The position numbers and the translations under genes were made by a program. A stretch of DNA of 64,000 nt from Candidatus Jacksonbacteria bacterium RIFOXYB2_FULL_44_15 (GTDB lineage Bacteria; Patescibacteriota; Patescibacteriia; UBA9629). Below the pieces are notes generated by a model. It saw nothing but the letters and a program-made list of their open reading frames with translations, made no database searches and had not been told where the DNA came from. How positions within the stretch are numbered: position 1 is the first letter of the stretch; each line of letters opens with the position of its first letter. The DNA lies in the NCBI GenBank assembly GCA_001818235.1, contig MHJY01000010.1, positions 17,609 through 81,608 on the forward strand. The letters run 5' to 3'. Positions 1,007 to 64,000 of this stretch are shown piece by piece.

Positions 1007-1152
1007 CCGGATTTATTGTGTCAAATAATGGAAATTCCACTCCCACCTCCCCTTTACCCGCCAAAGTTTTTGCTAAAAATTTAGGCGGGTGAAACCCCTC
1101 CTCCGGCAGGAGGGGAACTGAAAGTAAAAATGAAAATTAAAAATTTTCGTCC

Positions 1153-11878: not shown

Positions 11879-11882
11879 TAAA

Positions 11883-11906
11883 ACTCCTTGTCATTCTCGC
11901 GAAAGC
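11883..11906 (-). repeat. Family-A motif copy 11 nt upstream of the HemN-like start
   Basis: On the coding strand it reads GATTCCCGCTTTCGCGAGAATGAC followed by AAGGAG (SD), a 4-nt spacer, then ATG. It contains a GNRA (GAAA) tetraloop hairpin. Confidence 0.6.
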
Positions 11907-12066
11907 GGGAATCTATATCAATAGTTCAACCAGCATTCTTGTCCTCCCATTGAGAACACCATATTATACACCTCTCAAAACAATTGCCAACTAAATTATA
12001 CAAATAGATATACCTAATACCTAATACTTAATACCTGATACTTAAACAGCTCTTACTATAGCCAAA

Positions 12067-12096
12067 TTTGACACAGTAACAAAAATCATCTATGCT
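12067..12096 (+). promoter_or_regulatory. Sigma70-like promoter (TTGACA-N18-TATGCT) for the TrmB-GT operon
   Basis: Near-consensus hexamers about 20 nt upstream of the 12115 start. A TAATACC-type tandem simple repeat lies at 12010-12045. Confidence 0.4.
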
Positions 12097-12114
12097 CAAT
12101 TCAGTTGTCAAAAA

Positions 12115-12879
12115 ATGACGACAATATCAAAAAAAATGACCGAATCAATTAAAACCTTAGCCGAATTCGGCCTCACCCCCAATCAAACCAAAGTTTATTT
12201 GGCACTCCTTGAATTAGGCGAAGCCAGGGTGCAAGATATAGCTAAAAGAGCTCAAGTCCTGCGAACTACTACTTACGAGGTTTTAGAACAGCTCAAACAA
12301 ATCGGCATCATCAGCCAATACAACCGACAGAATATTCGAATTTACTTTGCGGAACCGCCAAGTTCTTTGGAGCAAATTTTGGAGACTAAAAAAAAAGCAA
12401 TCCAAAAAATCCTGCCGCAACTTGAATCCGTTTATAATATCAGTGACTTTAAGCCTAAAATAAGATACTATGAAGGGGTTAAAGGGTACAAAATTGTTTA
12501 TGAAGATACTTTAACCTGCCAAGAAAAACATTTGCGCGCCATCTTGTCGATGCAGGACATGTTTGAAAAAATGGGCGAGCAATATATGGAAAATTACATT
12601 AAAAAACGCGCTACCACTGGTATCAATCTTAATGTCATTCGAATCGGCCCGCACGAAGTCAAACCGATTTGGCCGGAAAGCCGCGAAGAATTGCGCGCCG
12701 TCCGCTTTGCGCCAGAGAACTTTGTTTTTCCTTTAACGATGTATATTTACGATAATAAAGTCAGTTTAATGTCCACCAAACGTGAAAATTTTAGTTTAAT
12801 CATCGAGTCCAAAGAATTTATGCAGACTCAGAAAGCCTTATTCGAAATTTTGTGGCAAGTATCCACGAAATCAAAATGA
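12115..12879 (+). CDS. TrmB-family transcriptional regulator (paralog 1)
   Basis: N-terminal wHTH (TKVYLALLELGEARVQDIAKRAQVLRTTTYEVLEQL) and a TrmB C-terminal domain. It is similar to the other three paralogs in the window. Confidence 0.75.
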   Translation: MTTISKKMTESIKTLAEFGLTPNQTKVYLALLELGEARVQDIAKRAQVLRTTTYEVLEQLKQIGIISQYNRQNIRIYFAEPPSSLEQILETKKKAIQKILPQLESVYNISDFKPKIRYYEGVKGYKIVYEDTLTCQEKHLRAILSMQDMFEKMGEQYMENYIKKRATTGINLNVIRIGPHEVKPIWPESREELRAVRFAPENFVFPLTMYIYDNKVSLMSTKRENFSLIIESKEFMQTQKALFEILWQVSTKSK

Positions 12880-13991: not shown

Positions 13992-13995
13992 AATT

Positions 13996-14865: not shown

Positions 14866-14889
14866 GTTCAGTCTATTTTTGCATCGCAT

Positions 14890-52634: not shown

Positions 52635-53414
52635 TCAAACTTCGCCAGTTTGCCAAAAAGTATAAAATATACTCTTTAACATGGCAACAATATATTGATC
52701 TTCGATTAATATTGCAAGTGCGGCTTTAGGCTGCCAAATAATAACTTTATTAGAAAATAACTGAAAAGACGTAAGAAACGGCGTCTTAACATGGAGAATC
52801 CTGGTTTCACGCATTTCTTGAGAATCAGTCGATTTTAACTCGTTGGAATCTTTACTGGGCAAAAGTAAAGCTTTAATCGTAACGCCTTTTCTAATTCGTT
52901 GTTTTATCCATCGTCGCTCCTCTGCCCAAGAAATAAAGCCGATAAAATCCTTAACCGAGCCAAAAAATTCAGAAACATCCTTAACCTCATCAATAATCTG
53001 GTAAAAAAGTTTTAAAAATTGATCTCTACCCTCAATGACTTTAATCGAAGTCGGCAACGATCCTTGTTTAAATAACCCTAACAATTGCGGCATATTCTGA
53101 GTAACGCCTTGATCCAATCGTTCCAATAATTCACGCTTTTTTCGTAACAGCTCCAACATTTTGCATGGTGACTCAACCATGAATGACCGACTAAAACGCC
53201 GGCGTTTAGAAAAGTGCGCCAACCCACGAGACTCCAAACCAGTAATCACTTTATAGACATTTGGACGAGACACGTTTAAATGCTGTGCAATCTTAGAAAC
53301 ACTCGCCGGCCCGATAGCCAAAGACAAAGTATATAGATTAATTTCGTGCCTGGTAAGCCCAAGCTCCTTGAGGGAATCGTAAACAATGTTTTTCACTTCT
53401 TTTTGGCTTTCCAT
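52635..53414 (-). CDS. TrmB-family transcriptional regulator (paralog 2)
   Basis: N-terminal wHTH (HEINLYTLSLAIGPASVSKIAQHLNVSRPNVYKVITGLESRGL). It is divergent from the PLP decarboxylase gene. Confidence 0.65.
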   Translation of the reverse strand: MESQKEVKNIVYDSLKELGLTRHEINLYTLSLAIGPASVSKIAQHLNVSRPNVYKVITGLESRGLAHFSKRRRFSRSFMVESPCKMLELLRKKRELLERLDQGVTQNMPQLLGLFKQGSLPTSIKVIEGRDQFLKLFYQIIDEVKDVSEFFGSVKDFIGFISWAEERRWIKQRIRKGVTIKALLLPSKDSNELKSTDSQEMRETRILHVKTPFLTSFQLFSNKVIIWQPKAALAILIEDQYIVAMLKSIFYTFWQTGEV

Positions 53415-53488
53415 AAAGTAAATCTAAAATATTTGTATATTTATTTTATACTACTTAACAAATAATGTCAATTTTTAAAGTAAATTAC

Positions 53489-53518
53489 TTGACAATTGCG
53501 TATATTTAAGCTATAATT
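53489..53518 (+). promoter_or_regulatory. Sigma70-like promoter TTGACA-N18-TATAAT for the decarboxylase gene
   Basis: Consensus hexamers. An RBS ggaaggtga precedes the ATG at 53574. Confidence 0.45.
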
Positions 53519-53573
53519 ATTTTTAGATTACAATAATAACTCTTTGACAATTTTATATAGGAAGGTGATCCAG

Positions 53574-54779
53574 ATGACTACGCATTTAAAAATTGGACGA
53601 CTTGACGCCGATGAACTAGCTAAAAAACTCACAACGCCGCTTTATGTTTATGATGCAAGGCGGGTTGAAGAAAACTACCTAACAATTAATTCCGCGATTT
53701 TTTATGAGCCAAAGCAGATTCATTATGCGATCATGTGTAATAACAGGTTACAGATATTGAAAGTACTCTTAAATTTAGGAGCTGACATTCAAGTCAATTC
53801 TGTAAAAGAGTATCGCCTTGTAAAGTCAATCGGCTCCTCCAATGCGAAAATCAGCGTTACTACAACTAATATCAGCACTGACGATCTGTCGTTTTATGCG
53901 GAAAATCAAGCCCAGATAAATTTTGATTCTATAGAAGAGATTAGCTGTTATGGACAGTTAATCAAACAATCCAGCACTGTCATCAATCATACTATTGGAA
54001 TCAGAATATCTGTACCGATGGAAATAACTGACCAATCCGCGACCAATCAGCCACATCCGACAAAAGCAAGAGTGGGCATAAATAGCAAACAATTTGACCT
54101 CGTTAAAGAAGCAGCAAAAAAGTATAATCTAAAAATTAACGGAATCCATGGCTATATCGCATCTAATTTGATCGACCTAGTACCGTTTATCAAATTAGGC
54201 TCCTATTTAGTAGAGTGCGCCAAAAAATTTCCGGATTTAGAATATATTAACTTTGGCACTGGATTTGGAATAGATTTTGATTGGCTGGCTTATGGTCAAA
54301 TGGTAACGCCGTTAATGAGATCCATCTCCACTTTCTTTGGCCGCCCAATTCATCTTAAAATTGAACCTGGGCGTTCATTGGTCGGTGATGCCGGCATTTT
54401 GTTGACACGCGTCACCAATATCAAAGACATGGGCAATTGGACGCAAGTCGGTGTTGACGCCGGTTTTGGCGTTTTTGCCAGACCGTATATCTATGGTTGG
54501 CAAAAGGGACAAGGCGGCTACCATCCAGTGGTGGTCGCCAATAAGATTGACCAACCACCAAAAGGACTCTACACAATCTGCGGTAACTCGACCCTGCAGG
54601 GCGATTTTATCGCCGAAGATCGACTATTGCCGGAGATTGAAATTGGCGACTTAATTGCTATTCTGAATGCCGGTGCCTATGGCGCAGTGATGTTATCAGG
54701 TTTCCCAGGAATGAGACGTGCCGGTGAAGTCTTGATTTATGATGATACAATTGAGGTGATTAGTGAAACTGAACGCTAG
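53574..54779 (+). CDS. PLP-dependent decarboxylase, Orn/DAP/Arg decarboxylase (fold III, LysA-like) family
   Basis: N-terminal TIM-barrel region, EPGRSLVGDAG motif, and C-terminal ICGNS...GAYG. Start taken at the ATG at 53574 instead of the TTG in the ORF track. Confidence 0.7.
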   Translation: MTTHLKIGRLDADELAKKLTTPLYVYDARRVEENYLTINSAIFYEPKQIHYAIMCNNRLQILKVLLNLGADIQVNSVKEYRLVKSIGSSNAKISVTTTNISTDDLSFYAENQAQINFDSIEEISCYGQLIKQSSTVINHTIGIRISVPMEITDQSATNQPHPTKARVGINSKQFDLVKEAAKKYNLKINGIHGYIASNLIDLVPFIKLGSYLVECAKKFPDLEYINFGTGFGIDFDWLAYGQMVTPLMRSISTFFGRPIHLKIEPGRSLVGDAGILLTRVTNIKDMGNWTQVGVDAGFGVFARPYIYGWQKGQGGYHPVVVANKIDQPPKGLYTICGNSTLQGDFIAEDRLLPEIEIGDLIAILNAGAYGAVMLSGFPGMRRAGEVLIYDDTIEVISETER

Positions 54780-54931
54780 TCACCTCAAATTAACCCCCTA
54801 GGAGACTGAATATCCTAGGGTTTGTTTTTTTATAGACTGAAACCTGGTTATATAAAATAACCAGGTTTTGACTAGACAAGTTGACCAAACTATTTACGTC
54901 ATCTTAAAGGCTAATTCTACTTCTTCATTCC

Positions 54932-55711
54932 TTAATATCTTTTTGCCTCGGCCCAGGCCAGTTCGTATATTTTCTTCATCGCGTCGGCAATTTCGGCGCT
55001 TTCGATGATAATTCCCAACTTTTCGCGCCAAGAGGCAATCATCACTTTATTATCATAAATATTGATTTCAGGGGAGAAATAGAATTTATCGGCCGGGATA
55101 AGCGCTACTTCGCGTTTTTCTTCTTCATTATATTTAACTCTTTCTATTGCGGTTTCTGTTTGCGGAATAATCCCACGAATCGCGATCCCTTTTTTAGCTC
55201 GACGGGCATAATACTTGGGAAAATAATCCGGCAAAGCCTTGTGCATATCATCAACTGTGGCATAAGCGCGAATCGCTTCGTGAGAAGTAAGTGTATCTTC
55301 GTAAACTTCTACTAATCCGGCCTTGCCTTCATAAAATTTAACTTTTGGCCGATCGGAAATATTGTGAATTGATTTTAAGCGCGGCACTAAGTTTGCCGAT
55401 TTTTTTAATTGCAACTCATACTGCGCGATCTTGTCTTTTAAAAAGGTGGTTATGATATCCGGCGATTGGGCGACGTATTCTTCTTTCGGCTCTTTCCCGG
55501 AAATGCTGACCAGCCCCTTGCTTACCAGAAGATCAAGGATGTTGTAACCGGTCGTGCGATTTATCCCAGCTGACCTGGCAATCACGCTCACTGTTCCTCT
55601 TCCAAGCTCTAATAAAGCTAGATATACCTTAGTTTCTTTATCGCTAAAGCCTAAATCTGAAAGGGCGGATTGTAAATTTGAGTCAATATTTATCATAAAT
55701 TTATTATACAT
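54932..55711 (-). CDS. TrmB-family transcriptional regulator (paralog 3)
   Basis: TKVYLALLELGRGTVSVIARSAGINRTTGYNILDLLVSKGLV plus a TrmB C-terminal domain. It is divergent from a radical SAM gene. Confidence 0.75.
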   Translation of the reverse strand: MYNKFMINIDSNLQSALSDLGFSDKETKVYLALLELGRGTVSVIARSAGINRTTGYNILDLLVSKGLVSISGKEPKEEYVAQSPDIITTFLKDKIAQYELQLKKSANLVPRLKSIHNISDRPKVKFYEGKAGLVEVYEDTLTSHEAIRAYATVDDMHKALPDYFPKYYARRAKKGIAIRGIIPQTETAIERVKYNEEEKREVALIPADKFYFSPEINIYDNKVMIASWREKLGIIIESAEIADAMKKIYELAWAEAKRY

Positions 55712-55810
55712 CTGTTCTTATTTTGTGTCAATAAGTTTAAACAAAACATTATACAAGCTATTTTATGGCTAGTTTATGGCTATTTTGGCTATACATAATG
55801 CCAATACGTA

Positions 55811-55839
55811 TTGACAATATTATGAAGATGTAGTATAAT
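55811..55839 (+). promoter_or_regulatory. Consensus sigma70 promoter TTGACA-N17-TATAAT for the radical SAM gene
   Basis: Exact consensus hexamers with 17-bp spacing. An RBS aaggggat precedes the ATG at 55915. Confidence 0.5.
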
Positions 55840-55914
55840 GTGATAAGAAATAAAAAACGTGCTTTGTCAATTAAATAGTACTTTACTGCAATATAAAGAA
55901 AGGGGATTGATGTA

Positions 55915-57162
55915 ATGAAAACAATTAATATCGGTCGAAGTGATTCTTTCGCCATCTTAACAAACAACATACCGGTTATCTTCCCTGGCCAGTTTCCAAA
56001 GGGCTACCAGAACAATGTAAGATGGTGGGGGAACATCAGCAAAGAGGAGTTACACTCTACTTTACCGGATGGAACGGCGCGATTGCTGACGATGGACCTA
56101 GATATTGGCGATACTTGCGGTCTTGCATGTCCGCATTGTTTCCGTCGGGATCCTAGGTTTGACTCTGTCAGTAAGGGAAACGCTTTAACCCACGAGGAAA
56201 TCGTGGCCTATGTTAAAGAGGCGAAAGCGCTCGGATTAAAACAAGTTAAAATCCTAGGTCGGGGCGAACCATTCCAAAATACGCGATTCCTTGAATTTTT
56301 GGAAACAATGACAGACATGGGTATCGGAGTGGCCGTGTTCAGTAAAGGACACGTGTTGGGTTGCGATGCGCTAGCGAGCAAATATAATAGTCATCGCGGA
56401 ATAAATTCCAGTTGGGAGCTAGTAAAACGCCTAAAAGATTTAAAAGTCAGTATTCTGCTGGGATTTAATTCTTTTGATCGCGACACCCAAAATGCCTTTA
56501 CCGGCGTTGACAAGTTCTCTGAAACCGCTTTGCTCAAAAACTATGTTGACTTTAGAGACCAAGCTTTAATCAACTTAGTTAAAGCGGGGTTTAACGAATA
56601 TATCCCCGGCGAAGCAACTAGACTAGCGATGATCGCGGCCCCGGTAAAGCCAGAGAATATAGACGAAATATTTGGTCTATATACTTGGGCGAGGGTAAGG
56701 AATATTTACATGCTCACCTGTCCAACCACTATCAGTGGTAAAGGGCTTGATGAATTAGAGCGCGAAAAACAGCATGCAGACTACGTTTCTCAGCTCGAGG
56801 ATCTGTGGGCGCAGATTTACATCTGGGCGATCCAAAAAAATCTCATCTCTAGAGAAGCTTTTCTAGAAGATGGGGTATCCCTGTATCCCGGATGCCATGT
56901 CTGTAATCAGACAGCGGCTGGATTCTACCTAAATTTACCTGGGCGGATCAACATGTGCCCCGGAAGAGTAGGCGGAACGACCATTTTTACCCGTGATATC
57001 GGCGAAGAAGCATCTTTAAAGGATGTCTGGGTACGATCTTCCAACTATCAGAGAGCCAAATACGGTAAGCGATACAATTACCATTGTGTCGCTCGTGACG
57101 GCTTCTCGTTGCCTCAAAATTTCTATAAAAATATTGAGGCAAAAGTAATGAAGAGCATTTAA
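55915..57162 (+). CDS. Radical SAM enzyme with a C-terminal Cys-rich (SPASM/twitch-like) region
   Basis: CGLACPHC (CxxxCxxC), GRGEPF, and C-terminal CHVC...MCPG cysteines. Confidence 0.7.
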   Translation: MKTINIGRSDSFAILTNNIPVIFPGQFPKGYQNNVRWWGNISKEELHSTLPDGTARLLTMDLDIGDTCGLACPHCFRRDPRFDSVSKGNALTHEEIVAYVKEAKALGLKQVKILGRGEPFQNTRFLEFLETMTDMGIGVAVFSKGHVLGCDALASKYNSHRGINSSWELVKRLKDLKVSILLGFNSFDRDTQNAFTGVDKFSETALLKNYVDFRDQALINLVKAGFNEYIPGEATRLAMIAAPVKPENIDEIFGLYTWARVRNIYMLTCPTTISGKGLDELEREKQHADYVSQLEDLWAQIYIWAIQKNLISREAFLEDGVSLYPGCHVCNQTAAGFYLNLPGRINMCPGRVGGTTIFTRDIGEEASLKDVWVRSSNYQRAKYGKRYNYHCVARDGFSLPQNFYKNIEAKVMKSI

Positions 57163-57307
57163 AAATTGCTCAAAACCAAAAGCCGATCAAATATTGACGC
57201 ACTTAACTTGATCGGCTTCTTTTTTTCGTATTAATATCCGCAAGCTATCCCGCCTTCGTCCGTCGACAAGCTCGTGACTTCGGCGGGACAAGCGCTTGGG
57301 CTCCGCG

Positions 57308-57919
57308 TTACTTTTTAAGCACTATCATCCTCATTTTTTGCCCAAATTTTAATCTTTCTGCCGGATCGTCAAATGCGATTTCACTTGGTTCAAATTCTGC
57401 TGGATCAAAATCCTCATCTCCAACCCAGTCGACAACGTCCGCATATTCAGGATGTTTGGGATTTTTGAGAATATCTAATTTGTCATAGTATCCCCAAATG
57501 CCGCCGCTGTCTTCAAACGGACAAGCCATTTTACCGGCAATACAAACTGGGTATTTATTATTTTTAACTTTTAGCACTATTTTTTCTAAAATTACCAAGT
57601 GCTCCCAATTATCGCCGAAGTCGTAAGTATAGTTCATCTTTCCCAACTTTGGGAACCAACCTTTGATTTTTTCTTTCCAGCCAGCTAAAACTTCGGTCCA
57701 GTCATCATCAGTCGGGATGCCGATGTGTAGCTCTTTTCCTCTCGGACCTATGGTAGTAAATTCGTGCAAATGACTATCGCCCCAACCCATCGCTTCTTGA
57801 ATGGCCACGTGCAAGTCCCAGAAACTATAATTTTCCGGCACCTGAATTCTTCGCCAGATAGGCGGCTTGCAATCTTTCAGAGTGATCTTAAACTGATAAA
57901 TATTTTTATAATTTTTCAT
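57308..57919 (-). CDS. pRiA4b ORF-3-like (PRiA4_ORF3 family) protein
   Basis: IYQFKITLKDCKPPIWRRIQVP...FWDLHVAIQEAMGWGDSHLHEF...YDFGDNWEH signature blocks. Confidence 0.65.
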   Translation of the reverse strand: MKNYKNIYQFKITLKDCKPPIWRRIQVPENYSFWDLHVAIQEAMGWGDSHLHEFTTIGPRGKELHIGIPTDDDWTEVLAGWKEKIKGWFPKLGKMNYTYDFGDNWEHLVILEKIVLKVKNNKYPVCIAGKMACPFEDSGGIWGYYDKLDILKNPKHPEYADVVDWVGDEDFDPAEFEPSEIAFDDPAERLKFGQKMRMIVLKK

Positions 57920-57937
57920 AGGTATCCATTTATAACT

Positions 57938-58225
57938 CTACCTTCTTAACTTATAGCCATTCACCTGCTCCAGTAAACTAATAGTCGCCTGCACCGATGA
58001 GTTGACAGTGTTAATCAACTTAACTCGATCGCCAAATCTCTTATATAGTGGAGTTATAAATTCATCGCCCCAGGATGGTGTAAAAGAAACGACACCGTCG
58101 AAGTCGATTAGAATCTCTTCATTGTCGGTAGCCGTAACCAAAGTTGGGTTAAAAGCCGCCAAAGCTTCCTTGCCATCTTGACGCGAAGTTAAAATCTCGC
58201 CAAATTTTTTAATGTATATATGCAT
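57938..58225 (-). CDS. DUF4325 (STAS-like) domain protein
   Basis: 95 aa with ILIDFDGVVSFTPSWGDEF resembling the STAS-like DUF4325 core. It lies directly downstream of a GHKL-ATPase gene. Confidence 0.55.
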   Translation of the reverse strand: MHIYIKKFGEILTSRQDGKEALAAFNPTLVTATDNEEILIDFDGVVSFTPSWGDEFITPLYKRFGDRVKLINTVNSSVQATISLLEQVNGYKLRR

Positions 58226-58226
58226 A

Positions 58227-58949
58227 TTAAAATTTAATCAAAGCCAAACATCCTCGTAAATAAGTTTCCGAATTAATAATTTCAAGCGTTGCTTCATGTT
58301 CTTTCAGCCATAATTGCGCATTGCCGCTTTGAAAGAACAGCGACATTGGATTAGTAGTCACGACCTGTCGGACGAACTTTAATCCATTGCCGCGAGCCTC
58401 TGGCGACCGACCAGAAATAATTTCGGAAAAAGCCACCACTAACGCCTGTCTATCATTCTGCAATTCAGGCCTAATCCTTTTTAAAGTCTGCAATATTCCT
58501 TGGCCGCGATCAGCTAAAACAATATACCGCTTATTAATATCATAACCAAAAAAAGTTCCGAGGATATCCGGCCAGTTGCCTAAGTTATGATCAAACGAAT
58601 TATTGCCAATCTCGCCGGTAATCGCAACTATTAAAGGAACGACCTCGGCTAAAGCAGGTTGATTAGTAAGAGCGAGCGGCAATTTTGATAGTCGCGCTTT
58701 AAATATCATGCTGTCTGGACAATAATATTCTGACACTGGATCAACTGGATTATCTAGCATCCATTTCCAGGCAACTTTAAAAAGTGGACATAATAAAAAA
58801 TCAATATCTATGCGCCGATAATGTCGATGAGCACGTTGCCCTGATCTAATTGCTGATAAATGGCCGCTTTGATCCCAGCGGCGTAATGTTTGGACGCTTA
58901 CACCAAGAGCTTGCGCTGCTTGGCTGATTGTTAATGTACTTTTAGACAC
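58227..58949 (-). CDS. MerR-type HTH fused to a GHKL (histidine-kinase-like) ATPase domain
   Basis: LTISQAAQALGVSVQTLRRWDQSGHL (MerR HTH). N-box-like GEIGNNSFDHN, G1 LADRGQGI and G2 GNGLKF are as in RsbW-type anti-sigma kinases. Confidence 0.6.
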   Translation of the reverse strand: MSKSTLTISQAAQALGVSVQTLRRWDQSGHLSAIRSGQRAHRHYRRIDIDFLLCPLFKVAWKWMLDNPVDPVSEYYCPDSMIFKARLSKLPLALTNQPALAEVVPLIVAITGEIGNNSFDHNLGNWPDILGTFFGYDINKRYIVLADRGQGILQTLKRIRPELQNDRQALVVAFSEIISGRSPEARGNGLKFVRQVVTTNPMSLFFQSGNAQLWLKEHEATLEIINSETYLRGCLALIKF

Positions 58950-59072
58950 ATGTAAACCTATACAAACTTATCTTAAATTTAATGTAAATGTATAGTTTGT
59001 TAGTCAAATCTATACAAATTATAGCAAAAAGTGACAATTTATGCAAGCTTTCCCTCCACTTCGGTGGGCAGG

Positions 59073-59708
59073 CTACGTCCTTTTCCGCGATGGCAAGAAG
59101 AAAGCGGCAATAATCAATAGCCCGATAAAAATAAAGGCCAGGGGCAGGGGATTGATGATTTTGATAAGCTGGGTCGGAATCCATGCCCAGAGCACTGCCC
59201 CGATGGCAGTTCTGATTAAGGTGATAATTATATAATCAGATATTTTGATCTTGGTTAGCCCAAAAGCATAATTTGCCACGTCCAAGGGAATAATTGTGCG
59301 TAGCAATAACAACCGCCAGAAAGTACTCGGTTGATTAAGAACATATTTACCAATCAAACGATCGACAGTCTCGAGATTTACAAATTTTTTTATCCAATCC
59401 CGTCCATAATGATGGCTGATGTAAAAAACAATTCCGGCGCTTATATTCCAAGCGATAAAAAAATAAGTCGCCAAAGCCACCGGGCTCCAAACATAAGAGG
59501 CAAACGGCACCAAGGGCAAGGCGGAAAAAGGCGCCACCACCGTGGCAAAAATTACGTAAATGATAAATACTGCCGGCCCTAAAATTGTGTGCTGGTTAAT
59601 AAAGTAACGAAAATCTTCCAACGGCAACTCTAATCCGGCTAAAAATCCATACCCGACTGCCAAACAGGTTAAGATCACCAACAAAATAAATAATCTCTTT
59701 TTACTCAT
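59073..59708 (-). CDS. TVP38/TMEM64 (DedA-like) family membrane protein
   Basis: Multi-transmembrane protein with an internal SNARE-associated-like core (GPAVFIIYVIFATVVAPFSALPL). It overlaps the upstream TrmB gene by ATGA. Confidence 0.65.
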   Translation of the reverse strand: MSKKRLFILLVILTCLAVGYGFLAGLELPLEDFRYFINQHTILGPAVFIIYVIFATVVAPFSALPLVPFASYVWSPVALATYFFIAWNISAGIVFYISHHYGRDWIKKFVNLETVDRLIGKYVLNQPSTFWRLLLLRTIIPLDVANYAFGLTKIKISDYIIITLIRTAIGAVLWAWIPTQLIKIINPLPLAFIFIGLLIIAAFFLPSRKRT

Positions 59709-60433
59709 AGTTTATCCCATAACAATTTAAATTTTTGGCGCTCCATTTGGGCTAAATCCGAGCTTTGAATCACTACGCCGATTAATTCTTTTTCCGAGGA
59801 CAGGCAGGCGATTTTGTCCTGAAAAATAAACATTGAACTGGAGAAAAAATATTCTTGCGGCAGGTATTTGATTGTACGCAAAAACTTGGCTTCGTCTTGC
59901 TTTAATTTATTCGCACCCAGATCAGCGAAAACTAAAGCTGTGAATTTAATATTCTTTTCCATTCTCGCCGGAATGTAGTGGTTATAATCATATTCTGGAG
60001 TAACGATTTTGTAAATATCAACAATCGAGCCAAGGTATAGAATCTCGCTATTTTTGACCTCGAGCGTTTGCTCGACAATTGAAAGGCAGCCTTCTTTGCC
60101 CAGATAAAACCGAACTTCCGGCCGTTTTTCTTCTTTGCCTTTGATTAGCGCCGACAGCTGGGGCATAATTTGGAGTAACGCTTCTTGCCGTTCTTTTAAA
60201 AGCGACTGCAACCGCTCCGGCTCTTCGGCGATAAACTTTTTTGATTCTTTTGATTGATAATAACTTACGAGACCTTTCTGCATCAAAGACTCGAGGATTA
60301 CATAAACCGTGGTGCGTTTTATTTTTGATTTTTTGGCGATCTCCGGAATCTTGGCCGAGCCCAACTCCAAAGAAGCCAGATATACACGGGCTTCTTTTTC
60401 GGTTAAGCCAAGTTTTTGAAGAGTGGAGAGCAT
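59705..60433 (-). CDS. TrmB-family transcriptional regulator (paralog 4)
   Basis: EKEARVYLASLELGSAKIPEIAKKSKIKRTTVYVILESLMQKGLV plus a TrmB_C domain. Confidence 0.75.
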   Translation of the reverse strand: MLSTLQKLGLTEKEARVYLASLELGSAKIPEIAKKSKIKRTTVYVILESLMQKGLVSYYQSKESKKFIAEEPERLQSLLKERQEALLQIMPQLSALIKGKEEKRPEVRFYLGKEGCLSIVEQTLEVKNSEILYLGSIVDIYKIVTPEYDYNHYIPARMEKNIKFTALVFADLGANKLKQDEAKFLRTIKYLPQEYFFSSSMFIFQDKIACLSSEKELIGVVIQSSDLAQMERQKFKLLWDKL

Positions 60434-60472
60434 GGGTGGTTGGTTAGACTATGACATGATAGCCGATGGAAT

Positions 60473-60564
60473 TGTCATTCCGAGCGGACCCCGAGCAGGG
60501 GCGAGGGGGGAGTCGAGGAATCTCTCTGGATTAAGCAAGGGATCCCTCGGCAAGCTCGGGATGA
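60473..60564. repeat. Head-to-head pair of Family-A motif copies in the divergent intergenic region
   Basis: gtcattccgagcggaccccgagcaggggcgaggggggagtcgaggaatc (60473-60521, minus-oriented) and gatccctcggcaagctcgggatgac (60537-60564, plus-oriented). The second is the exact reverse complement of 2520-2544. Confidence 0.6.
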
Positions 60565-60691
60565 CAAATTGACGTTTTTTGCTTATATACAGACTGGCCA
60601 TTTTTTACAAATCTGTCGATAATTTTGTCAACTTGATTTTATTATATACTAAAGTAAAACAGCTGTCAAACTTTGCTATTTGCCAAAAGTA

Positions 60692-60720
60692 TTGACAAAT
60701 ATCTCAATCAATGTTATAAT
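60692..60720 (+). promoter_or_regulatory. Consensus sigma70 promoter TTGACA-N17-TATAAT
   Basis: Exact hexamers. An RBS aggag precedes the ATG at 60785. Confidence 0.5.
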
Positions 60721-60784
60721 GATTTTATTAATAATAAATGACATTGCTCTTTGAAAAAAATCTTATAAATATAGGAGAAAAATA

Positions 60785-62023
60785 ATGAGTAACGAATACA
60801 TCGTCAATATAGAGTTGCCCGGAATTCAGACAGAAATTAAAGAAGCTCGAAAAATATTTAGCGACTTCTACGAAAAATATTGTACTACGTTTGACCTGGC
60901 TGATGAAGCCAAAATCAAAATGGTGTACAAAGCCGCACAAATCATGGGCATTTTCGCAAGGGCAAAAGCAATTCGCCAACTCTTGTTTGGCCGCAACATA
61001 TCGCTGTATGGAGTGTGTTACTTAGGAACTAAATGCAATCAAAACTGCAAATTCTGTCCAATGGGGCAGGCCAACTGGAAAATGCACCTACATGGCAAAA
61101 CTTCAAGCGATAGGCTGATTACGCTATCGTTAGAAGAGGCGTCGGCTGATCTTGATGCCCTAGTTCAAATAGGACATCGCGAAATCTGCATTTTAGCCGG
61201 AGAAGCGATCGCTTGCGATCCCGGCAAAGTCGTCGAATACGCCCAACTCGCGGTCTATAAACCAGGCGTTCATGAAGTAATCCTGAATATGGGAGCGTAC
61301 ACGCAACGTACTTTCGAATTCATCAAAGAAACCATTGTGCTCCCAGCTGGAGTCAAACTCCAGCATCGCGTGTTTCAGGAGACATATGTCAAAACAGAGT
61401 ATGACTACTACATGGAGCGTGCCCCTCGCGAGCACGGTAGTAAAGCAGACTTTGACTTCCGCTACAATTCCCAAGTGGCTGCTCTCAAAGCTGGGTTCGA
61501 TGAAGTCGGTATCGGAGTCCTGTTTGGTCTAAGCCGCTATCCTTTAAAAGAAATAAAAGGTCTGCAACAGCACGCGGCTTATATCAAAAAGTATGGCGGA
61601 AAGTATCCTAAAAGATGCTGTCTGCCAATAGCTAACAATCCTGAACCGGATACAAATCCAGTTGATGTTAAATACCTAATCCCAGGTATGTCAACCGAAC
61701 AGATGATAACTGAGCTAATCTACGCTCTAGCCAGATTGGCCATGCCAACTGTTTCGACAGTCTCATCAGAGCGCGATAATCCAGGTACCCTGGAGCTTCT
61801 GGATCAATACGCGAACCACACCACCTTGTTTGTTCATCCGGCTCCAGGGGGGAACATTAAATCATTGGACGAACTCCATGGTGAAACATTCAGTCATGGC
61901 TACAAACCAGTAGCCCAAGCAGAAGTATTCCCACGCTACCCAAGGGAGGCGATCAAAAGCTGGCAGAAACGGGGATACAATATTCTGGGTTTTAACATTA
62001 CAAAGTATGACCTTTGCCCGTAA
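60785..62023 (+). CDS. Radical SAM enzyme, ThiH/HydG/CofGH/MqnCE-like branch
   Basis: FGRNISLYGVCYLGTKCNQNCKFCPMG (CxxxCxxC preceded by a conserved Gly/hydrophobic N-cap), with a TIM-barrel-like remainder. Confidence 0.7.
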   Translation: MSNEYIVNIELPGIQTEIKEARKIFSDFYEKYCTTFDLADEAKIKMVYKAAQIMGIFARAKAIRQLLFGRNISLYGVCYLGTKCNQNCKFCPMGQANWKMHLHGKTSSDRLITLSLEEASADLDALVQIGHREICILAGEAIACDPGKVVEYAQLAVYKPGVHEVILNMGAYTQRTFEFIKETIVLPAGVKLQHRVFQETYVKTEYDYYMERAPREHGSKADFDFRYNSQVAALKAGFDEVGIGVLFGLSRYPLKEIKGLQQHAAYIKKYGGKYPKRCCLPIANNPEPDTNPVDVKYLIPGMSTEQMITELIYALARLAMPTVSTVSSERDNPGTLELLDQYANHTTLFVHPAPGGNIKSLDELHGETFSHGYKPVAQAEVFPRYPREAIKSWQKRGYNILGFNITKYDLCP

Positions 62024-62069
62024 ATTATGACGGCCCAGGTCGCATTAAGCTGTTAAAGGAGAGTAAAAA

Positions 62070-62600
62070 ATGAGAAAAATTATTACTGAACTAATAAAGT
62101 TAATAGCGAAGTACAATTCGACAATTCCTGCAATGCTAAAAGAGGAGCGGAAGTACCTTATCCAAAAGGTGAACGAAATTGTAGACGACAATTCCCTGGC
62201 AGATGATCTGCGGGCAGAAATTGTTAAAGAAATCCTAGATGATCCAGAAGTTGGGTTTATTGATCTCAGACTCCCTGGCGGATATGCTAGGGAATATTCC
62301 GACGAAATACTAAAGAAAAATTATTCGTCGAAGTCTGGAATACACTCTTGTACAGCACGAGAAGTATTTGAGCAAATCGATACAATTTTGCAACAAGAAG
62401 GGTTTGACATTGGCTATGTTAGTAAGTTATTTACGACTGAACATGGTGAAGGAAAATTCCCCTTTGTCAGGTACGAAGATCTCGAAAAAGCGCAAGAAGC
62501 GCGAATTGCGCTCTATAAAATAACTCTGCATATTTATCCTCTTTTGCGCGCGAAAGGATTGACTAAAGATGACCTGATGCCAAATTTCTTTTTTGAATAA
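62070..62600 (+). CDS. Hypothetical protein
   Basis: 176-aa ORF co-oriented with and between the radical SAM genes. No recognisable motif. Confidence 0.45.
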   Translation: MRKIITELIKLIAKYNSTIPAMLKEERKYLIQKVNEIVDDNSLADDLRAEIVKEILDDPEVGFIDLRLPGGYAREYSDEILKKNYSSKSGIHSCTAREVFEQIDTILQQEGFDIGYVSKLFTTEHGEGKFPFVRYEDLEKAQEARIALYKITLHIYPLLRAKGLTKDDLMPNFFFE

Positions 62601-62692
62601 CACAAACTAGCACTAAACCAAAAGCCAGCGGCAAACTATTGTTACCACTGGCTTCTTACTTTTATCGACAAGACAGACAAGGAGGAAAACGC

Positions 62693-62965
62693 ATGCTTGT
62701 AAACGCAACGTACTTAACTTTGAGCTTTGTTTTAGTGGCACTTGACATACTGTTGCTTATCAAAATAACCAAACCGGCTATCCGCATCGGAACGATTATT
62801 GGAATCAGTGGAACTGGTATTTATTTACTTATTTATGGATTGCTCGGAATTGTTCAAGACCCGTCAATTAATTTTGCGAATTGGGGTATGTCCATACTAA
62901 AAATGACCCTAGCGATCCATATTGTTGCTACTTTGTTAGCGCTTATAACTTGGAGGGTAAAATAA
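62693..62965 (+). CDS. Small membrane protein (three transmembrane helices)
   Basis: Strong SD (caaggagg) 7 nt before the ATG at 62693. Three hydrophobic helices. The stop overlaps the next ATG (TAATG). Confidence 0.45.
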   Translation: MLVNATYLTLSFVLVALDILLLIKITKPAIRIGTIIGISGTGIYLLIYGLLGIVQDPSINFANWGMSILKMTLAIHIVATLLALITWRVK

Positions 62966-64000
62966 TGAAAGTTGTATTAATGCAACCAAACGCAGACGAA
63001 ATTTACCAAAACAGACAATCGGCTTATTGTTCGCCCATAAGACCGCCGGAAACTGGTTTAGCAGTACTGGCGACTTGGCTGCACGCTTATTCTAAAATGC
63101 AACCAGAAGTAGCGGTTCTAAATCCATATGCTGAATTCGAAGAAAATGTGCGACGAGCGGCTGATGCAGATTGGTTCGGGATGACTGATTTGTATACTAA
63201 CCATAATAATTGTCTGCACATTGCGGATGCAGTGAAACAAAAAAATCCGCAAGTCAAAATAATCCTTGGCGGCCCTAATGCGGCAATGCTAGGGGATTTG
63301 GTACTCCGAAATCGCCCGGTAATCGACTACGTTGTTGGTAGTTCAAGATGTTGGGATGGTGAAGATGCCTTAACTGGGTTAATTAACGAAACACCCGAGG
63401 CTAAAATTCCTAATCTCTGGTACAAAAAAGCAGGTAAGGCAATTTTCACTTACCCTGCCTGGACTGACCTCAAGTCAATGCCCTTATGGGACTTTGCCGA
63501 TTTTCTTGATCTTGATGTTCGACTAGCAGAACACATCAATAATCAGGCTGGCGATCCTTGGCAGGTATCACCATTGGCCTTGTTCAACTTACGAGGATGT
63601 ATCAAAGCCATCAAAGAAGGACCATGTACGTATTGCACATCTGCTGACTGCGGCGGAAAGGGGAGATTACTGTTACCAGATCAATTTTGGCAACAAGTAA
63701 CACATCTTAATCAATTATATGGGGCTAAAGTATTTTATGTAGCTGATGATATCTTTACTGTATCGCTCGCTACTATGGAACGTTTAGCACGAGCCAAACC
63801 TAGCAAAGATGATGTGAAGTTAAGAGCCTACGGCTTTTTACCTGATTTAATCAAGCTAGAGAATAAAAAATTAAAAAGAATGGCTACAGCATTAAAAAAA
63901 ATTGGTGTCTTTAACCTTTTCTATGGTTCAGAACATTATGCGCCGGCTATTGTCCGTCTGGCCAACAAGCAACCGGTAAGCATTCAGGAGACAGTACGGA
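62965..64000 (+). CDS. B12-binding-domain protein with downstream radical-SAM-like Cys cluster (partial, runs off the window)
   Basis: The N-terminal roughly 130 aa resembles a cobalamin-binding Rossmann-like domain (VKIILGGPNA...). Later LRGCIKAIKEGPCTYCTSA gives a Cx8Cx2C cluster rather than canonical CxxxCxxC. The reading frame is open to the end of the window. Confidence 0.5.
   Translation, partial: MKVVLMQPNADEIYQNRQSAYCSPIRPPETGLAVLATWLHAYSKMQPEVAVLNPYAEFEENVRRAADADWFGMTDLYTNHNNCLHIADAVKQKNPQVKIILGGPNAAMLGDLVLRNRPVIDYVVGSSRCWDGEDALTGLINETPEAKIPNLWYKKAGKAIFTYPAWTDLKSMPLWDFADFLDLDVRLAEHINNQAGDPWQVSPLALFNLRGCIKAIKEGPCTYCTSADCGGKGRLLLPDQFWQQVTHLNQLYGAKVFYVADDIFTVSLATMERLARAKPSKDDVKLRAYGFLPDLIKLENKKLKRMATALKKIGVFNLFYGSEHYAPAIVRLANKQPVSIQETVR

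What the first reader, a model, noticed from the sequence alone, without database searches (positions are those of the whole stretch)
52635..64000. TrmB-rich cluster with three radical-SAM enzymes, a PLP decarboxylase and membrane proteins: candidate cryptic biosynthetic or modification locus
Within 11 kb there are three TrmB-family regulators, each divergent from or adjacent to an enzyme gene with an exact-consensus TTGACA-N17-TATAAT promoter. The enzymes are a LysA-fold PLP decarboxylase (53574-54779), a radical SAM with a SPASM/twitch-like C-terminus (55915-57162), and a ThiH/HydG/Cof/Mqn-branch radical SAM (60785-62023). Downstream are a hypothetical protein, a small three-transmembrane protein, and a B12-domain protein with a radical-SAM-like Cys cluster (62965 onward). 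There are also a TVP38/DedA membrane protein and a MerR-GHKL ATPase / DUF4325 pair. For an organism with otherwise minimal metabolism, three radical-SAM enzymes plus a decarboxylase under sugar-regulator-type control look like a dedicated pathway. It could be a modified amino-acid or nucleoside pathway, a cofactor-like or RiPP-like product pathway, or an envelope-lipid modification pathway. I cannot name the product.
Basis: inference. Interest (0 to 1): 0.7.

Follow-up and report, generated by a model that had tools for sequence, protein, structure and literature searches.

The report
Three separate TrmB-regulator/enzyme cassettes, not one pathway
This stretch of a Candidatus Jacksonbacteria (CPR) genome holds three self-contained units, each a short TrmB-type regulator facing one uncharacterised enzyme gene across strong back-to-back promoters; the units are inherited separately in other genomes, so a single hidden biosynthetic pathway is unlikely.

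Summary
Five of the window's six exact TTGACA-N17-TATAAT sites lie in the three divergent intergenic regions (0.06 expected per window).

The single-pathway reading does not hold. Each regulator/enzyme pair recurs with its own TrmB orthologue in other CPR contigs, but the enzymes do not travel together. None of 80 rSAM_A loci carries rSAM_B or the LysA-like gene. None of 15 rSAM_B loci in species-representative genomes carries the others. The nearest relative lacks the LysA-like gene, the B12 enzyme, both orphan genes and the three-gene insertion.

Three points are new:
- The "PLP decarboxylase" belongs to a conserved CPR/DPANN clade that has lost the Schiff-base lysine (K→M), the ring-stacking His and the Cys-Glu.
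- The TrmBs are short, TrmBL2-like, and lack the sugar-binding subdomain.
- A fourth TrmB/radical-SAM pair lies 40 kb upstream.

One residual link remains. A B12/radical-SAM family with an unusual Cx8Cx2C motif neighbours all three enzyme families in different genomes.

No product can be named. Verdict: real and conserved regulatory cassettes around uncharacterised enzymes, of moderate interest.

The parts
51994..52070 (+). tRNA-Val(CAC); left landmark of the variable stretch
   Evidence: ARAGORN; Rfam tRNA 70.4 bits
52635..53414 (-). TrmB1, a short TrmB-family regulator (259 aa); regulator of cassette 1
   Evidence: PF01978 4e-11. A 52% orthologue lies divergent from the LysA-like orthologue in L106/L107.
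53443..53517 (.). Back-to-back promoters of cassette 1: TTGACA-N17-TAAAAT on the minus strand (53471-53443) and TTGACA-N17-TATAAT on the plus strand (53489-53517). A second TTGACAA lies at 53544.
53574..54779 (+). LysA-fold protein lacking the PLP lysine (M54), the ring-stacking His (Tyr instead) and the Cys-Glu dyad. It belongs to a conserved CPR/DPANN clade.
54932..55711 (-). TrmB2 (259 aa); regulator of cassette 2. Its mRNA probably starts at the Met6 ATG (55696), which would make it leaderless.
   Evidence: PF01978 4.8e-16. Orthologues at 61-71% identity lie divergent from rSAM_A homologues in 10 loci. The -10 box 55708-55703 overlaps the annotated ATG. The best fold match is TrmBL2.
55703..55839 (.). 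Back-to-back exact-consensus promoters of cassette 2: minus strand 55731-55703, plus strand 55811-55839. A TTGTCAA lies at 55864.
55915..57162 (+). rSAM_A: a twitch/SPASM-class radical SAM enzyme of an uncharacterised CPR/DPANN family
57308..57919 (-). PRiA4_ORF3-family gene; first gene of a three-gene insertion that is absent from relative L020
   Evidence: PF07929 3e-60; absent in L020
57938..58225 (-). DUF4325 (STAS-like) gene, part of the insertion
   Evidence: PF14213 4e-8
58227..58949 (-). MerR-type HTH protein with an unassigned 145-aa C-terminal domain (GHKL-like motifs by eye only), part of the insertion
59073..59708 (-). VTT/DedA-superfamily membrane protein. Its start overlaps the TrmB3 stop by 4 nt, so the two are probably co-transcribed. 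The pairing is conserved in L020.
   Evidence: PF09335 7e-11; 44% orthologue in the same position in L020
59705..60433 (-). TrmB3 (242 aa); regulator of cassette 3
   Evidence: PF01978 1.4e-16; 72% orthologue divergent from the 75% rSAM_B orthologue in L020
60468..60565 (-). GC-rich hairpin-forming element inside the TrmB3 5' leader; absent from the orthologous L020 region
   Evidence: fold z-score -3.7; single copy in the window; no Rfam hit; comparison with L020B
60641..60720 (.). Back-to-back exact-consensus promoters of cassette 3: minus strand 60669-60641, plus strand 60692-60720. The sequence is nearly identical in L020.
60785..62023 (+). rSAM_B: a ThiH/HydG/NosL-class radical SAM enzyme of an uncharacterised family of about 90 sequence clusters, found in CPR and DPANN
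62070..62600 (+). Orphan 176-aa ORF; no family and no homologue in any fetched locus
62693..62965 (+). Small hydrophobic 90-aa ORF (108 aa if read from the TTG at 62639); an orphan
62965..64000 (+). B12-binding/radical SAM protein with a non-canonical Cx8Cx2C motif. It is cut by the window end; the full length is 484 aa. It is followed by the start of a DUF4372 (IS4-type transposase) ORF, where four independent assemblies break.
10670..12879 (.). Fourth divergon of the same kind, outside the flagged region: HemN/HutW-like radical SAM 10670-11878(-) facing TrmB4 12115-12879(+). TrmB4 is followed by a GT4 glycosyltransferase and a Wzy_C gene.

Best explanation
The region is a row of three autonomous regulatory cassettes, not one operon or one co-inherited pathway.

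**Anatomy of a cassette**
- Each cassette is a short (242-259 aa) TrmB-family regulator of TrmBL2-like architecture.
- The regulator is transcribed divergently from one enzyme gene.
- The two are separated by a 160-350 bp region holding two back-to-back promoters that are consensus or within one base of it.

**The three cassettes**
1. TrmB1 faces a LysA-fold protein that has lost the PLP-binding lysine.
2. TrmB2 faces a twitch/SPASM-class radical SAM enzyme (rSAM_A).
3. [VTT/DedA-TrmB3] faces a ThiH-class radical SAM enzyme (rSAM_B). In this lineage only, rSAM_B is followed by two orphan ORFs and a Cx8Cx2C B12/radical-SAM enzyme.

**Inferred mechanism**
- Each TrmB dimer binds TTGAC-containing repeats that overlap or flank the -35 boxes.
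- Binding holds both its own promoter and the intrinsically strong enzyme promoter shut until a cognate small-molecule ligand releases it.
- Each enzyme is therefore an individually inducible, stand-alone activity.

**Other features**
- The cassettes sit side by side in a variable stretch bounded by tRNA-Val on the left and an IS4-type transposase on the right.
- The stretch has also acquired a three-gene insertion: PRiA4_ORF3, DUF4325 and a MerR-HTH protein.

**Shown versus inferred**
- Shown: gene identities, promoter statistics, pairwise conservation of each cassette, lack of co-conservation between cassettes, and loss of the catalytic residues.
- Inferred: repression, ligand control, operator identity, and every substrate.
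For: **Promoters**
- 5 of the window's 6 exact consensus sites lie in the three divergent regions, against 0.06 expected per window.
- Both promoters are kept at 11-12 of 12 matches in most orthologous regions: L020A/B, L022A, L025A, L026A, L030A and L064A, with L054A at 10 and 11.

**Cognate pairing**
- TrmB1 (52%) faces the LysA-like gene (55%) in L106/L107.
- TrmB2 orthologues (61-71%) face rSAM_A homologues in L020, L022, L025, L026, L030, L032, L054, L064 and L083. A 44% homologue does so in L029.
- VTT (44%) and TrmB3 (72%) face rSAM_B (75%) in L020.
- All 14 TrmB-like ORFs in the fetched loci have a divergent partner 45-247 bp away.
- A fourth TrmB/radical-SAM divergon lies at 10670-12879.

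**Independence of the cassettes**
- 0 of 80 rSAM_A loci carry rSAM_B or the LysA-like gene.
- 0 of 15 rSAM_B loci carry rSAM_A or the LysA-like gene.
- rSAM_B stands alone among housekeeping genes in L021, L108 and L109.
- L020 lacks the LysA-like gene, the B12 enzyme, the orphans and the insertion.

**Candidate operator**
- TTGWCAA occurs 18 times in the window. Six of these fall in the 713 bp of the three intergenic regions, two per region.
- A TGAC(G/T) lies 13 nt upstream of the rSAM_A -35 box in 5 of 9 loci.

**Right boundary**
- Four assemblies end inside a DUF4372 ORF.
Against: - No experiment shows that the TrmBs bind these regions or repress.
- The TTGWCAA enrichment is partly circular, because three of the six sites are the -35 boxes themselves, and the motif is absent from several orthologous regions.
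- Adjacency within 10 kb is the only co-occurrence measure available. Genome-wide co-occurrence of the enzyme families could not be tested.
- The close relative L020 keeps the TrmB2/rSAM_A-like and TrmB3/rSAM_B cassettes adjacent.
- Two contigs of another sample also carry several TrmB/radical-SAM units within about 12 kb.
- One B12/radical-SAM family neighbours rSAM_A (L099, L065, L092), rSAM_B (window, L013) and the LysA-like gene (L104). Every hit lies within 2.5 kb of the seed gene, out of 1.13 Mb searched. This argues for some functional connection between the cassettes.
Confidence: 0.55

Rival explanations
1. One reading: the enzymes are steps of one dedicated pathway, for a modified amino acid, nucleoside, cofactor-like or RiPP-like product, controlled by several TrmB paralogues. 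The locus varies in composition between lineages.
For: - The rSAM_A-like and rSAM_B cassettes are adjacent in L020.
- TrmB-rich clusters with 3-4 radical SAM genes recur in the P0021 and P0024 contigs. There, ORFs of 90-96 aa directly precede the radical SAM genes.
- The Cx8Cx2C B12 family is a shared neighbour of all three enzyme families.
- rSAM_B, the two orphans and the B12 enzyme are tightly spaced on one strand.
Against: - 0 of 80 and 0 of 15 loci show co-location of the enzyme families.
- rSAM_B is a lone gene in three housekeeping contexts.
- No conserved precursor ORF exists.
- The 'decarboxylase' lacks its catalytic residues.
- Each enzyme has its own promoter and its own regulator.
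- An unrelated three-gene insertion splits the locus.
Confidence: 0.2
2. A reading of function only: rSAM_B, the B12 enzyme and possibly rSAM_A modify a sugar, nucleotide-sugar or lipid-linked envelope glycan. The co-transcribed VTT/DedA protein handles the lipid carrier.
For: - In Latescibacter (L013) the B12 enzyme and rSAM_B are stop/start-coupled at the end of a carbamoyltransferase, formyltransferase, GT2 and PIG-L-like deacetylase operon.
- The WOR-3 locus L011 shares the carbamoyltransferase and the PIG-L-like gene.
- VTT/DedA is conserved next to TrmB3.
- TrmB4 is followed by GT4 and Wzy_C genes.
- The rSAM_A model's hits include the sugar-acting enzymes DesII and BlsE.
Against: - Only 2 of 17 rSAM_B loci show the glycan context.
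- The characterised ThiH/HydG/NosL relatives cleave aromatic amino acids.
- The Foldseek matches are generic, with TM-scores of 0.49 or less.
- No glycosyltransferase lies in 52635-64000.
Confidence: 0.2
3. A reading of function only: the enzymes are substrate-induced amino-acid salvage or interconversion activities of an auxotrophic symbiont.
For: - In DPANN-type loci, rSAM_A (14 loci) and rSAM_B (4 loci) homologues are faced by tandem Lrp/AsnC regulators.
- In other phyla, rSAM_A homologues (11 loci) and distant rSAM_B-like genes (3 loci) sit directly after a Liv-type ABC transporter and a Peripla_BP_6 binding protein.
- The rSAM_B profile hits the aromatic amino-acid lyases HydG, ThiH and NosL.
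- The LysA-like clade neighbours an aminotransferase IV (L102) and a P5C-reductase-like gene (L104, and the P0241 fusion).
Against: - Peripla_BP_6 proteins and Lrp regulators also handle non-amino-acid ligands.
- The LysA-like protein lacks its catalytic residues.
- No substrate has been tested.
Confidence: 0.25
4. The stretch is a mobile or defence island, and the radical SAM enzymes are antiviral effectors of the viperin kind.
For: - A tRNA-Val lies on the left and an IS4-type transposase on the right.
- A Fic gene lies upstream.
- PRiA4_ORF3, DUF4325 and the MerR-HTH protein form an insertion absent from L020.
- rSAM_A gives a weak pVip N-terminal hit at E 7e-5.
Against: - PADLOC finds no system. 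The pVip hit covers only the generic radical-SAM core.
- GC content is not deviant.
- rSAM_A and rSAM_B homologues mostly sit among housekeeping genes.
Confidence: 0.07

Closest known systems
TrmBL2 of Thermococcales (PDB 5bpd, 5bqt), the short member of the TrmB family
   Same: Similar length (about 260 aa) and the same domain order. It is the best and only full-length structural match to the TrmB2 model (E 8e-12, about 270 aligned columns). The N-terminal PF01978 winged helix is present.
   Different: By my recollection of the literature, TrmBL2 is an abundant chromatin-like global repressor. Here four paralogues each face one specific target gene, which is a local-regulator arrangement. Sequence identity is only about 17-19%, and the model is of low confidence (pLDDT 69).
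Sugar-sensing TrmB / TrmBL1 (NF040851, NF047390)
   Same: The winged-helix DNA-binding domain and the following helix are shared.
   Different: The hits cover only the N-terminal part of the 338-349-position profiles, reaching position 173 at most, at 15-34 bits against cut-offs of 500-650. The window proteins are about 80-100 residues too short to hold the C-terminal sugar-binding subdomain.
Diaminopimelate decarboxylase LysA (TIGR01048; PDB 2p3e, 4xg1)
   Same: Both fold-type-III domains are present. The EPGR, RPxxY and AGAYG motifs and the glycine loop are retained.
   Different: The Schiff-base Lys is Met, the HIGS His is Tyr, and the CE(S/T)GD Cys-Glu is lost. These changes are conserved through the whole clade, P0241-P0288, at 36-62% identity. 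The score is below the equivalog cut-off. The nearest analogy, from memory and not as a relative, is the catalytically dead ornithine-decarboxylase homologue antizyme inhibitor.
ThiH / HydG / NosL aromatic amino-acid lyases
   Same: CxxxCxxC, the QETY-type motif and an SSERD-type motif are present. The family profile hits HydG at 3e-40, ThiH at 1e-27 and NosL at 5e-17.
   Different: The score is 84 bits against a ThiH cut-off of 380. Bit scores drop sharply between this family (191 bits and above) and the ThiH/HydG-type hits (about 100 bits). There is no BATS/HydG C-terminal domain and no thiG, thiS or hyd neighbours.
Twitch/SPASM radical SAM enzymes (MoaA, anSME, SuiB, EpeE, DesII, BlsE, GDGT-MAS)
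   Same: The radical SAM core is followed by a C-terminal cysteine-bearing domain. These are the best fold matches.
   Different: All TM-scores are 0.49 or less and identity is 11-20%. Sequence similarity is limited to the N-terminal 90 residues. No peptide substrate gene is conserved nearby.
Class B (cobalamin-dependent) radical SAM methyltransferases (TIGR03975, ApyD, HpnJ, GenK-type)
   Same: An N-terminal B12-binding domain is followed by a radical SAM barrel.
   Different: The cluster motif is Cx8Cx2C and is conserved across the family. The best NCBIfam score is 59 bits against a cut-off of 282. There is no PDB sequence match.

Membership tests
TrmB family, sugar-sensing type | N-terminal PF01978 winged helix-turn-helix | tested here: met
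   43, 58.8 and 60.5 bits, all above the 25.6 cut-off; TrmB4 54 bits
TrmB family, sugar-sensing type | C-terminal sugar-binding subdomain (full length about 340 aa) | tested here: not met
   The proteins are 242-259 aa. NCBIfam alignments reach at most profile position 173 of 349. The best fold match is the short TrmBL2.
TrmB family, sugar-sensing type | Sugar-dependent release from DNA | not testable with these tools
   Needs EMSA or footprinting with ligands
Diaminopimelate decarboxylase (LysA) | Fold-type-III PLP domains (PF02784 and PF00278) | tested here: met
   79.8 and 59.7 bits
Diaminopimelate decarboxylase (LysA) | Score above the TIGR01048 equivalog cut-off | tested here: not met
   224.9 against 297.9
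Diaminopimelate decarboxylase (LysA) | Schiff-base lysine in the YAVKAN motif | tested here: not met
   YAIMCN, with M54. The K-to-M change is conserved in all 17 clade members aligned, whereas P0289-P0335 keep the lysine.
Diaminopimelate decarboxylase (LysA) | HIGS histidine and the CE(S/T)GD Cys-Glu | tested here: not met
   HGYIASN and NSTLQGD in the window protein; the same substitutions occur across the clade
ThiH / HydG / NosL lyases | CxxxCxxC cluster motif and homology of the TIM-barrel core | tested here: met
   C84, C88 and C91 are invariant; HydG 3e-40, ThiH 1e-27
ThiH / HydG / NosL lyases | Score above any equivalog cut-off (ThiH 380, HydG 312, NosL-type 400) | tested here: not met
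   83.9, 78.7 and 36.8 bits
ThiH / HydG / NosL lyases | Pathway partners nearby (thiG/thiS/thiF, or hydE/hydF) | tested here: not met
   None in the window region or in L005-L021, L108 or L109
Twitch/SPASM radical SAM | Radical SAM core plus C-terminal cysteines for an auxiliary cluster | tested here: met
   PF04055 42.2 bits. C330, C348 and C391 are invariant and C269 is conserved in at least 90% of 85 sequences. The fold matches are twitch/SPASM enzymes.
Twitch/SPASM radical SAM | PF13186 SPASM profile match | tested here: not met
   No hit in the window protein. Only a few distant homologues carry a precomputed PF13186 hit.
RiPP or other biosynthetic gene cluster | Conserved precursor-peptide ORF next to the maturase | tested here: not met
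   Only unconserved 22-34 aa ORFs. The downstream ORFs of the window and L020 are unrelated.
RiPP or other biosynthetic gene cluster | Co-conservation of the enzyme genes across genomes | tested here: not met
   0 of 80 and 0 of 15 loci. Partial exceptions: L020 and the shared B12 partner.
Class B cobalamin radical SAM | B12-binding domain | tested here: met
   PF02310 35.5-36.4 bits against a 32.1 cut-off
Class B cobalamin radical SAM | Canonical CxxxCxxC and a radical SAM profile score above cut-off | tested here: inconclusive
   PF04055 scores 28.4 against 29.5. The motif is Cx8Cx2C, conserved in 29 of the 30 representatives aligned.
GHKL ATPase (for 58227-58949) | Profile or structure match to HATPase_c | tested here: not met
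   No Pfam, NCBIfam, PADLOC or PDB hit beyond the N-terminal HTH

The most novel reading that the evidence does not exclude
rSAM_A, rSAM_B and the lysine-less LysA-fold clade may be alternative 'front-end' enzymes of one undescribed small-molecule modification system shared by CPR bacteria, DPANN archaea and some other phyla.

Its common components would be:
- the Cx8Cx2C B12/radical-SAM enzyme;
- a dedicated ligand-sensing regulator (TrmBL2-like or tandem Lrp/AsnC), or else a Liv-type binding protein and transporter plus a giant 1000-1400-aa protein with no known domains.

The window would then hold three variants of that system side by side.
Probability: 0.15. Interest if true: 0.75.

Novelty: new variant of a known kind. 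Interest (0 to 1): 0.5.

Why it matters
CPR bacteria and DPANN archaea have tiny genomes, yet they keep these enzyme families at 45-77% identity across phyla and give each a private regulator. That suggests the activities matter for the symbiotic lifestyle, but none has a known substrate.

The analysis yields concrete, testable objects:
- Four cognate TrmB-regulator/target pairs with compact, probably very strong, bidirectional promoters. These could serve as inducible switches for organisms with no genetic tools.
- A conserved LysA-fold clade without the PLP lysine, which is either a candidate pseudoenzyme or a new chemistry on the fold-type-III scaffold.
- A B12/radical-SAM family with a non-canonical Cx8Cx2C motif.

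The work also warns against reading physical clustering in CPR genomes as a biosynthetic gene cluster.

Tried and rejected
- **Rfam:** the scan of 50000-64000 found only the tRNA. There is no riboswitch in the long rSAM_B/TrmB3 intergenic region.
- **PADLOC:** the scan of the radical SAM genes, the insertion genes and the giant neighbour proteins found no defence system.
- **Extending beyond the window:** four assemblies all stop 170-270 bp after the B12 gene, inside a DUF4372 transposase start. Nothing further lies downstream to recover.
- **Orphan ORFs:** tblastn and BLASTP found no relative of the 176-aa ORF in any locus.
- **PDB sequence searches:** for the B12 enzyme and for the C-terminal domain of the MerR protein, there were no hits.
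- **Literature:** TrmB with CPR or Patescibacteria gave 0 papers. DUF4325 and LysA pseudoenzymes gave nothing relevant.
- **GC-rich hairpin in the TrmB3 leader:** it is a single copy in the window and was not pursued.
- **Structure prediction of the TrmBs:** The four-sequence model is weak (pLDDT 69).
- **P0021 and P0024 contigs:** no DNA was available, so their extra radical SAM genes could not be assigned to families.

Full report
**Observation**

ORF listing and Pfam/NCBIfam scans confirm the gene map:

| Coordinates (strand) | Gene |
|---|---|
| 52635-53414 (-) | TrmB1 |
| 53574-54779 (+) | LysA-fold protein |
| 54932-55711 (-) | TrmB2 |
| 55915-57162 (+) | radical SAM "rSAM_A" |
| 57938-58225 (-) | DUF4325 |
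| 58227-58949 (-) | MerR-HTH protein |
| 59073-59708 (-) | VTT/DedA |
| 59705-60433 (-) | TrmB3 |
| 60785-62023 (+) | ThiH/HydG-like "rSAM_B" |
| 62070-62600 (+) | orphan 176-aa ORF |
| 62693-62965 (+) | small hydrophobic ORF |
| 62965 onward (+) | B12-binding/radical-SAM protein |

- The promoter claim holds statistically. Six exact TTGACA-N16-18-TATAAT sites occur in 64 kb against 0.06 expected, and five lie in the three divergent intergenic regions. The sixth promoter of those regions, that of TrmB1, matches at 11 of 12 positions.
- The source is a Candidatus Jacksonbacteria (CPR) groundwater MAG.
- The GHKL assignment for the MerR protein could not be reproduced with any profile or PDB search.

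**Extent of the locus**

- The same contig was found in four assemblies. All end 170-270 bp after the stop of the 484-aa B12 protein, inside the first 33 codons of an ORF that matches DUF4372 (30.1 bits). From memory, DUF4372 is the N-terminus of IS4-type transposases.
- The operon therefore ends with the B12 gene, and a repeated IS breaks the assembly.
- On the left lie tRNA-Val, a NUDIX gene, a pseudouridine synthase and a Fic gene. GC content is unremarkable.

**Is it one co-conserved pathway?**

For rSAM_B:
- The family is small: about 90 sequence clusters at 33% identity or more, found in CPR, DPANN and a few other phyla. It is clearly separated from true ThiH/HydG.
- In 15 species-representative genomes, tblastn with all cluster proteins found no rSAM_A and no LysA-like gene beside it.
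- Homologues at 43-50% identity sit alone in housekeeping rows. One is GroES-GroEL-[rSAM_B]; the other is PBP2-GreA-[rSAM_B]-AspRS-SerRS-SecA.

For rSAM_A:
- The family is large and well conserved, at 45-77% identity across CPR and DPANN.
- None of 80 metagenome loci carries rSAM_B or the LysA-like gene within 10 kb.
- Apart from the regulators and transporter genes described below, its neighbours are housekeeping genes such as PEP synthase, aminoacyl-tRNA synthetases, RFC and Trm5.

The closest relative available is L020, with proteins about 72-75% identical. It keeps only TrmB2 facing an rSAM_A paralogue, and VTT-TrmB3 facing rSAM_B. It lacks the three-gene insertion, the LysA-like gene, both orphan ORFs and the B12 gene.

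**What is conserved instead**

Each regulator/enzyme pair is conserved as a unit:
- TrmB2 orthologues (61-71%) lie divergently 95-250 bp upstream of rSAM_A homologues in nine loci. A 44% homologue does so in L029.
- A TrmB1 orthologue (52%) faces the LysA-like orthologue (55%) in L106/L107.
- TrmB3 (72%) faces rSAM_B (75%) in L020.
- All 14 TrmB-like ORFs in the fetched loci have a divergent partner.
- The same window holds a fourth pair 40 kb away: a HemN/HutW-like radical SAM facing TrmB4.

The promoter architecture is conserved too:
- The enzyme promoter keeps -35 TTGACA in 9 of 9 loci and a TGCTAnAAT extended -10 in 8 of 9.
- A TGAC(G/T) lies 13 nt upstream of the -35 in 5 of 9 loci.
- The TrmB2 promoter keeps TTGACACA in 8 of 8 loci.
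- TTGWCAA occurs twice in each of the three window intergenic regions, giving 6 of the window's 18 copies in 1.1% of its length.

I read these repeats as candidate operators and the TrmBs as local autoregulated repressors of strong promoters. That step is inference.

**The regulators**

- The four paralogues are 20-35% identical to each other over their full length.
- They match sugar-sensing TrmB profiles only over the N-terminal part.
- The TrmB2 model has low confidence (pLDDT 69). Its only full-length structural match is the short, sugar-domain-less TrmBL2 (E 8e-12).
- "Sugar-type control" is therefore not supported.

**The enzymes**

LysA-fold protein:
- When aligned to the DAP decarboxylases 2p3e and 4xg1, it has Met where the Schiff-base lysine should be.
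- The whole clade of 36-62% identical CPR/DPANN proteins shares K-to-M, His-to-Tyr in HIGS, and loss of the Cys-Glu dyad. It keeps EPGR, RPxxY, AGAYG and the glycine loop.
- The next-best hits, which are true LysA-like proteins, keep all the catalytic residues.
- It is therefore a conserved, catalytically altered or dead LysA-fold clade.
- Its neighbours elsewhere are an aminotransferase IV, a P5C-reductase-like gene (once fused), or TrmB.

rSAM_A:
- The model is confident (pLDDT 95).
- It matches only generic twitch/SPASM enzymes, with TM-scores of 0.49 or less.

B12 protein:
- It belongs to a family with 215 representatives at E of 1e-10 or better.
- The family has a conserved non-canonical Cx8Cx2C motif.

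**Evidence that complicates the verdict**

- An HMM of the B12 family was scored on all 1.13 Mb of fetched loci. It hit five distinct places, each within 2.5 kb of the seed gene:
  - beside rSAM_A in L099 (452 bits, 113 bp away), L065 and L092;
  - stop/start-coupled to rSAM_B in Latescibacter L013;
  - beside the LysA-like/ProC pair in L104.
- The P0021 and P0024 contigs of another sample also carry several TrmB/radical-SAM units within about 12 kb.
- Homologues of the two unrelated radical SAM families occupy the same slot in two other architectures:
  - a tandem Lrp/AsnC regulator facing the radical SAM gene;
  - a Liv-type ABC transporter, then a Peripla_BP_6 binding protein, then the radical SAM gene, then a giant protein without known domains. 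For rSAM_B this second architecture involves only distant (28-30% identical) relatives.
- In L013, and partly in L011, rSAM_B closes a carbamoyltransferase, formyltransferase, GT2 and PIG-L-like operon. This hints at glycan chemistry. The Lrp and Liv contexts and the ThiH clade hint at amino acids. I cannot decide between them.

**Verdict**

- The single-pathway interpretation is not supported by neighbourhood conservation.
- The best description is three, or with the upstream pair four, independent TrmBL2-like regulator/enzyme cassettes lying in a variable, IS-bounded stretch.
- A loose functional kinship between the enzyme families, through a shared B12/radical-SAM partner, cannot be excluded.
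- Novelty lies in the lysine-less LysA-fold clade, the uncharacterised CPR/DPANN radical SAM families and the cassette architecture. It does not lie in a new biosynthetic cluster.

Noticed in passing
window 10670-16191: A fourth TrmB divergon: a HemN/HutW-like radical SAM (10670-11878, minus strand) faces TrmB4 (12115-12879, plus strand). TrmB4 is followed on the same strand by a GT4 glycosyltransferase, an unknown 289-aa ORF and a Wzy_C O-antigen-ligase-like gene.
   Followed up: partly
L053, L055, L057-L059, L061, L062 (rSAM_A homologues); L016, L018, L019 (distant rSAM_B-like genes): A recurrent architecture in non-CPR contigs: Liv-type ABC permeases and ATPases, then a Peripla_BP_6 binding protein, then a radical SAM gene, then a giant 1000-1400-aa protein with no Pfam or PADLOC hit. 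The giant proteins share the motifs N[IMF]SHN[IV][GS][SA]HS and TTGRGR and form one distant family (phmmer 8e-9 and 7e-6). Two unrelated radical SAM families fill the same slot.
   Followed up: partly
window 60468-60565 (minus strand): A GC-rich 97-nt hairpin-forming element lies in the roughly 200-nt TrmB3 leader (MFE z-score -3.7). It is absent from the orthologous L020 region, is a single copy in the window, and has no Rfam match. It could be a REP- or MITE-like insertion or a leader structure.
   Followed up: partly
window 55694-55711: The -10 box of the TrmB2 promoter (55708-55703) overlaps the annotated ATG. The predicted transcription start coincides with the Met6 ATG at 55696, so the TrmB2 mRNA is probably leaderless and the protein five residues shorter. 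The same geometry holds in L020.
   Followed up: partly
L001 13802-13901 (about 800 bp beyond the window end): Four independent assemblies break inside the first codons of a DUF4372 ORF, the N-terminus of an IS4-type transposase. This implies a multi-copy IS immediately downstream of the B12 gene.
   Followed up: yes
P0241 (553 aa), L104 9196-9993: The lysine-less LysA-fold clade is once fused to the C-terminal half of a pyrroline-5-carboxylate reductase, or reads on from it. In another genome it is followed by a separate P5CR-like gene.
   Followed up: partly
L102/L103 12758-17242: In a DPANN-like contig carrying the LysA-like gene, a His-Xaa-Ser-type set lies 3.5 kb downstream: an asparagine-synthase-like gene, an HxsD-type radical SAM, a 75-aa ORF and a SPASM radical SAM.
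   Followed up: no
P0122, P0128, P0132 and other rSAM_A homologues of about 520 aa: Some close rSAM_A homologues carry an N-terminal extension of about 100 aa that begins with a hydrophobic, signal- or anchor-like segment. This is unexpected for a cytoplasmic iron-sulfur enzyme.
   Followed up: no
window 49788-50876 and L064: A Fic-domain protein with an N-terminal winged helix lies just left of the region. A 52% homologue lies about 10 kb upstream of the TrmB2/rSAM_A pair in L064.
   Followed up: no
window 996-1024 (minus strand): This is the only exact consensus promoter outside the flagged region. Its target gene, at coordinates below 996, was not examined.
   Followed up: no
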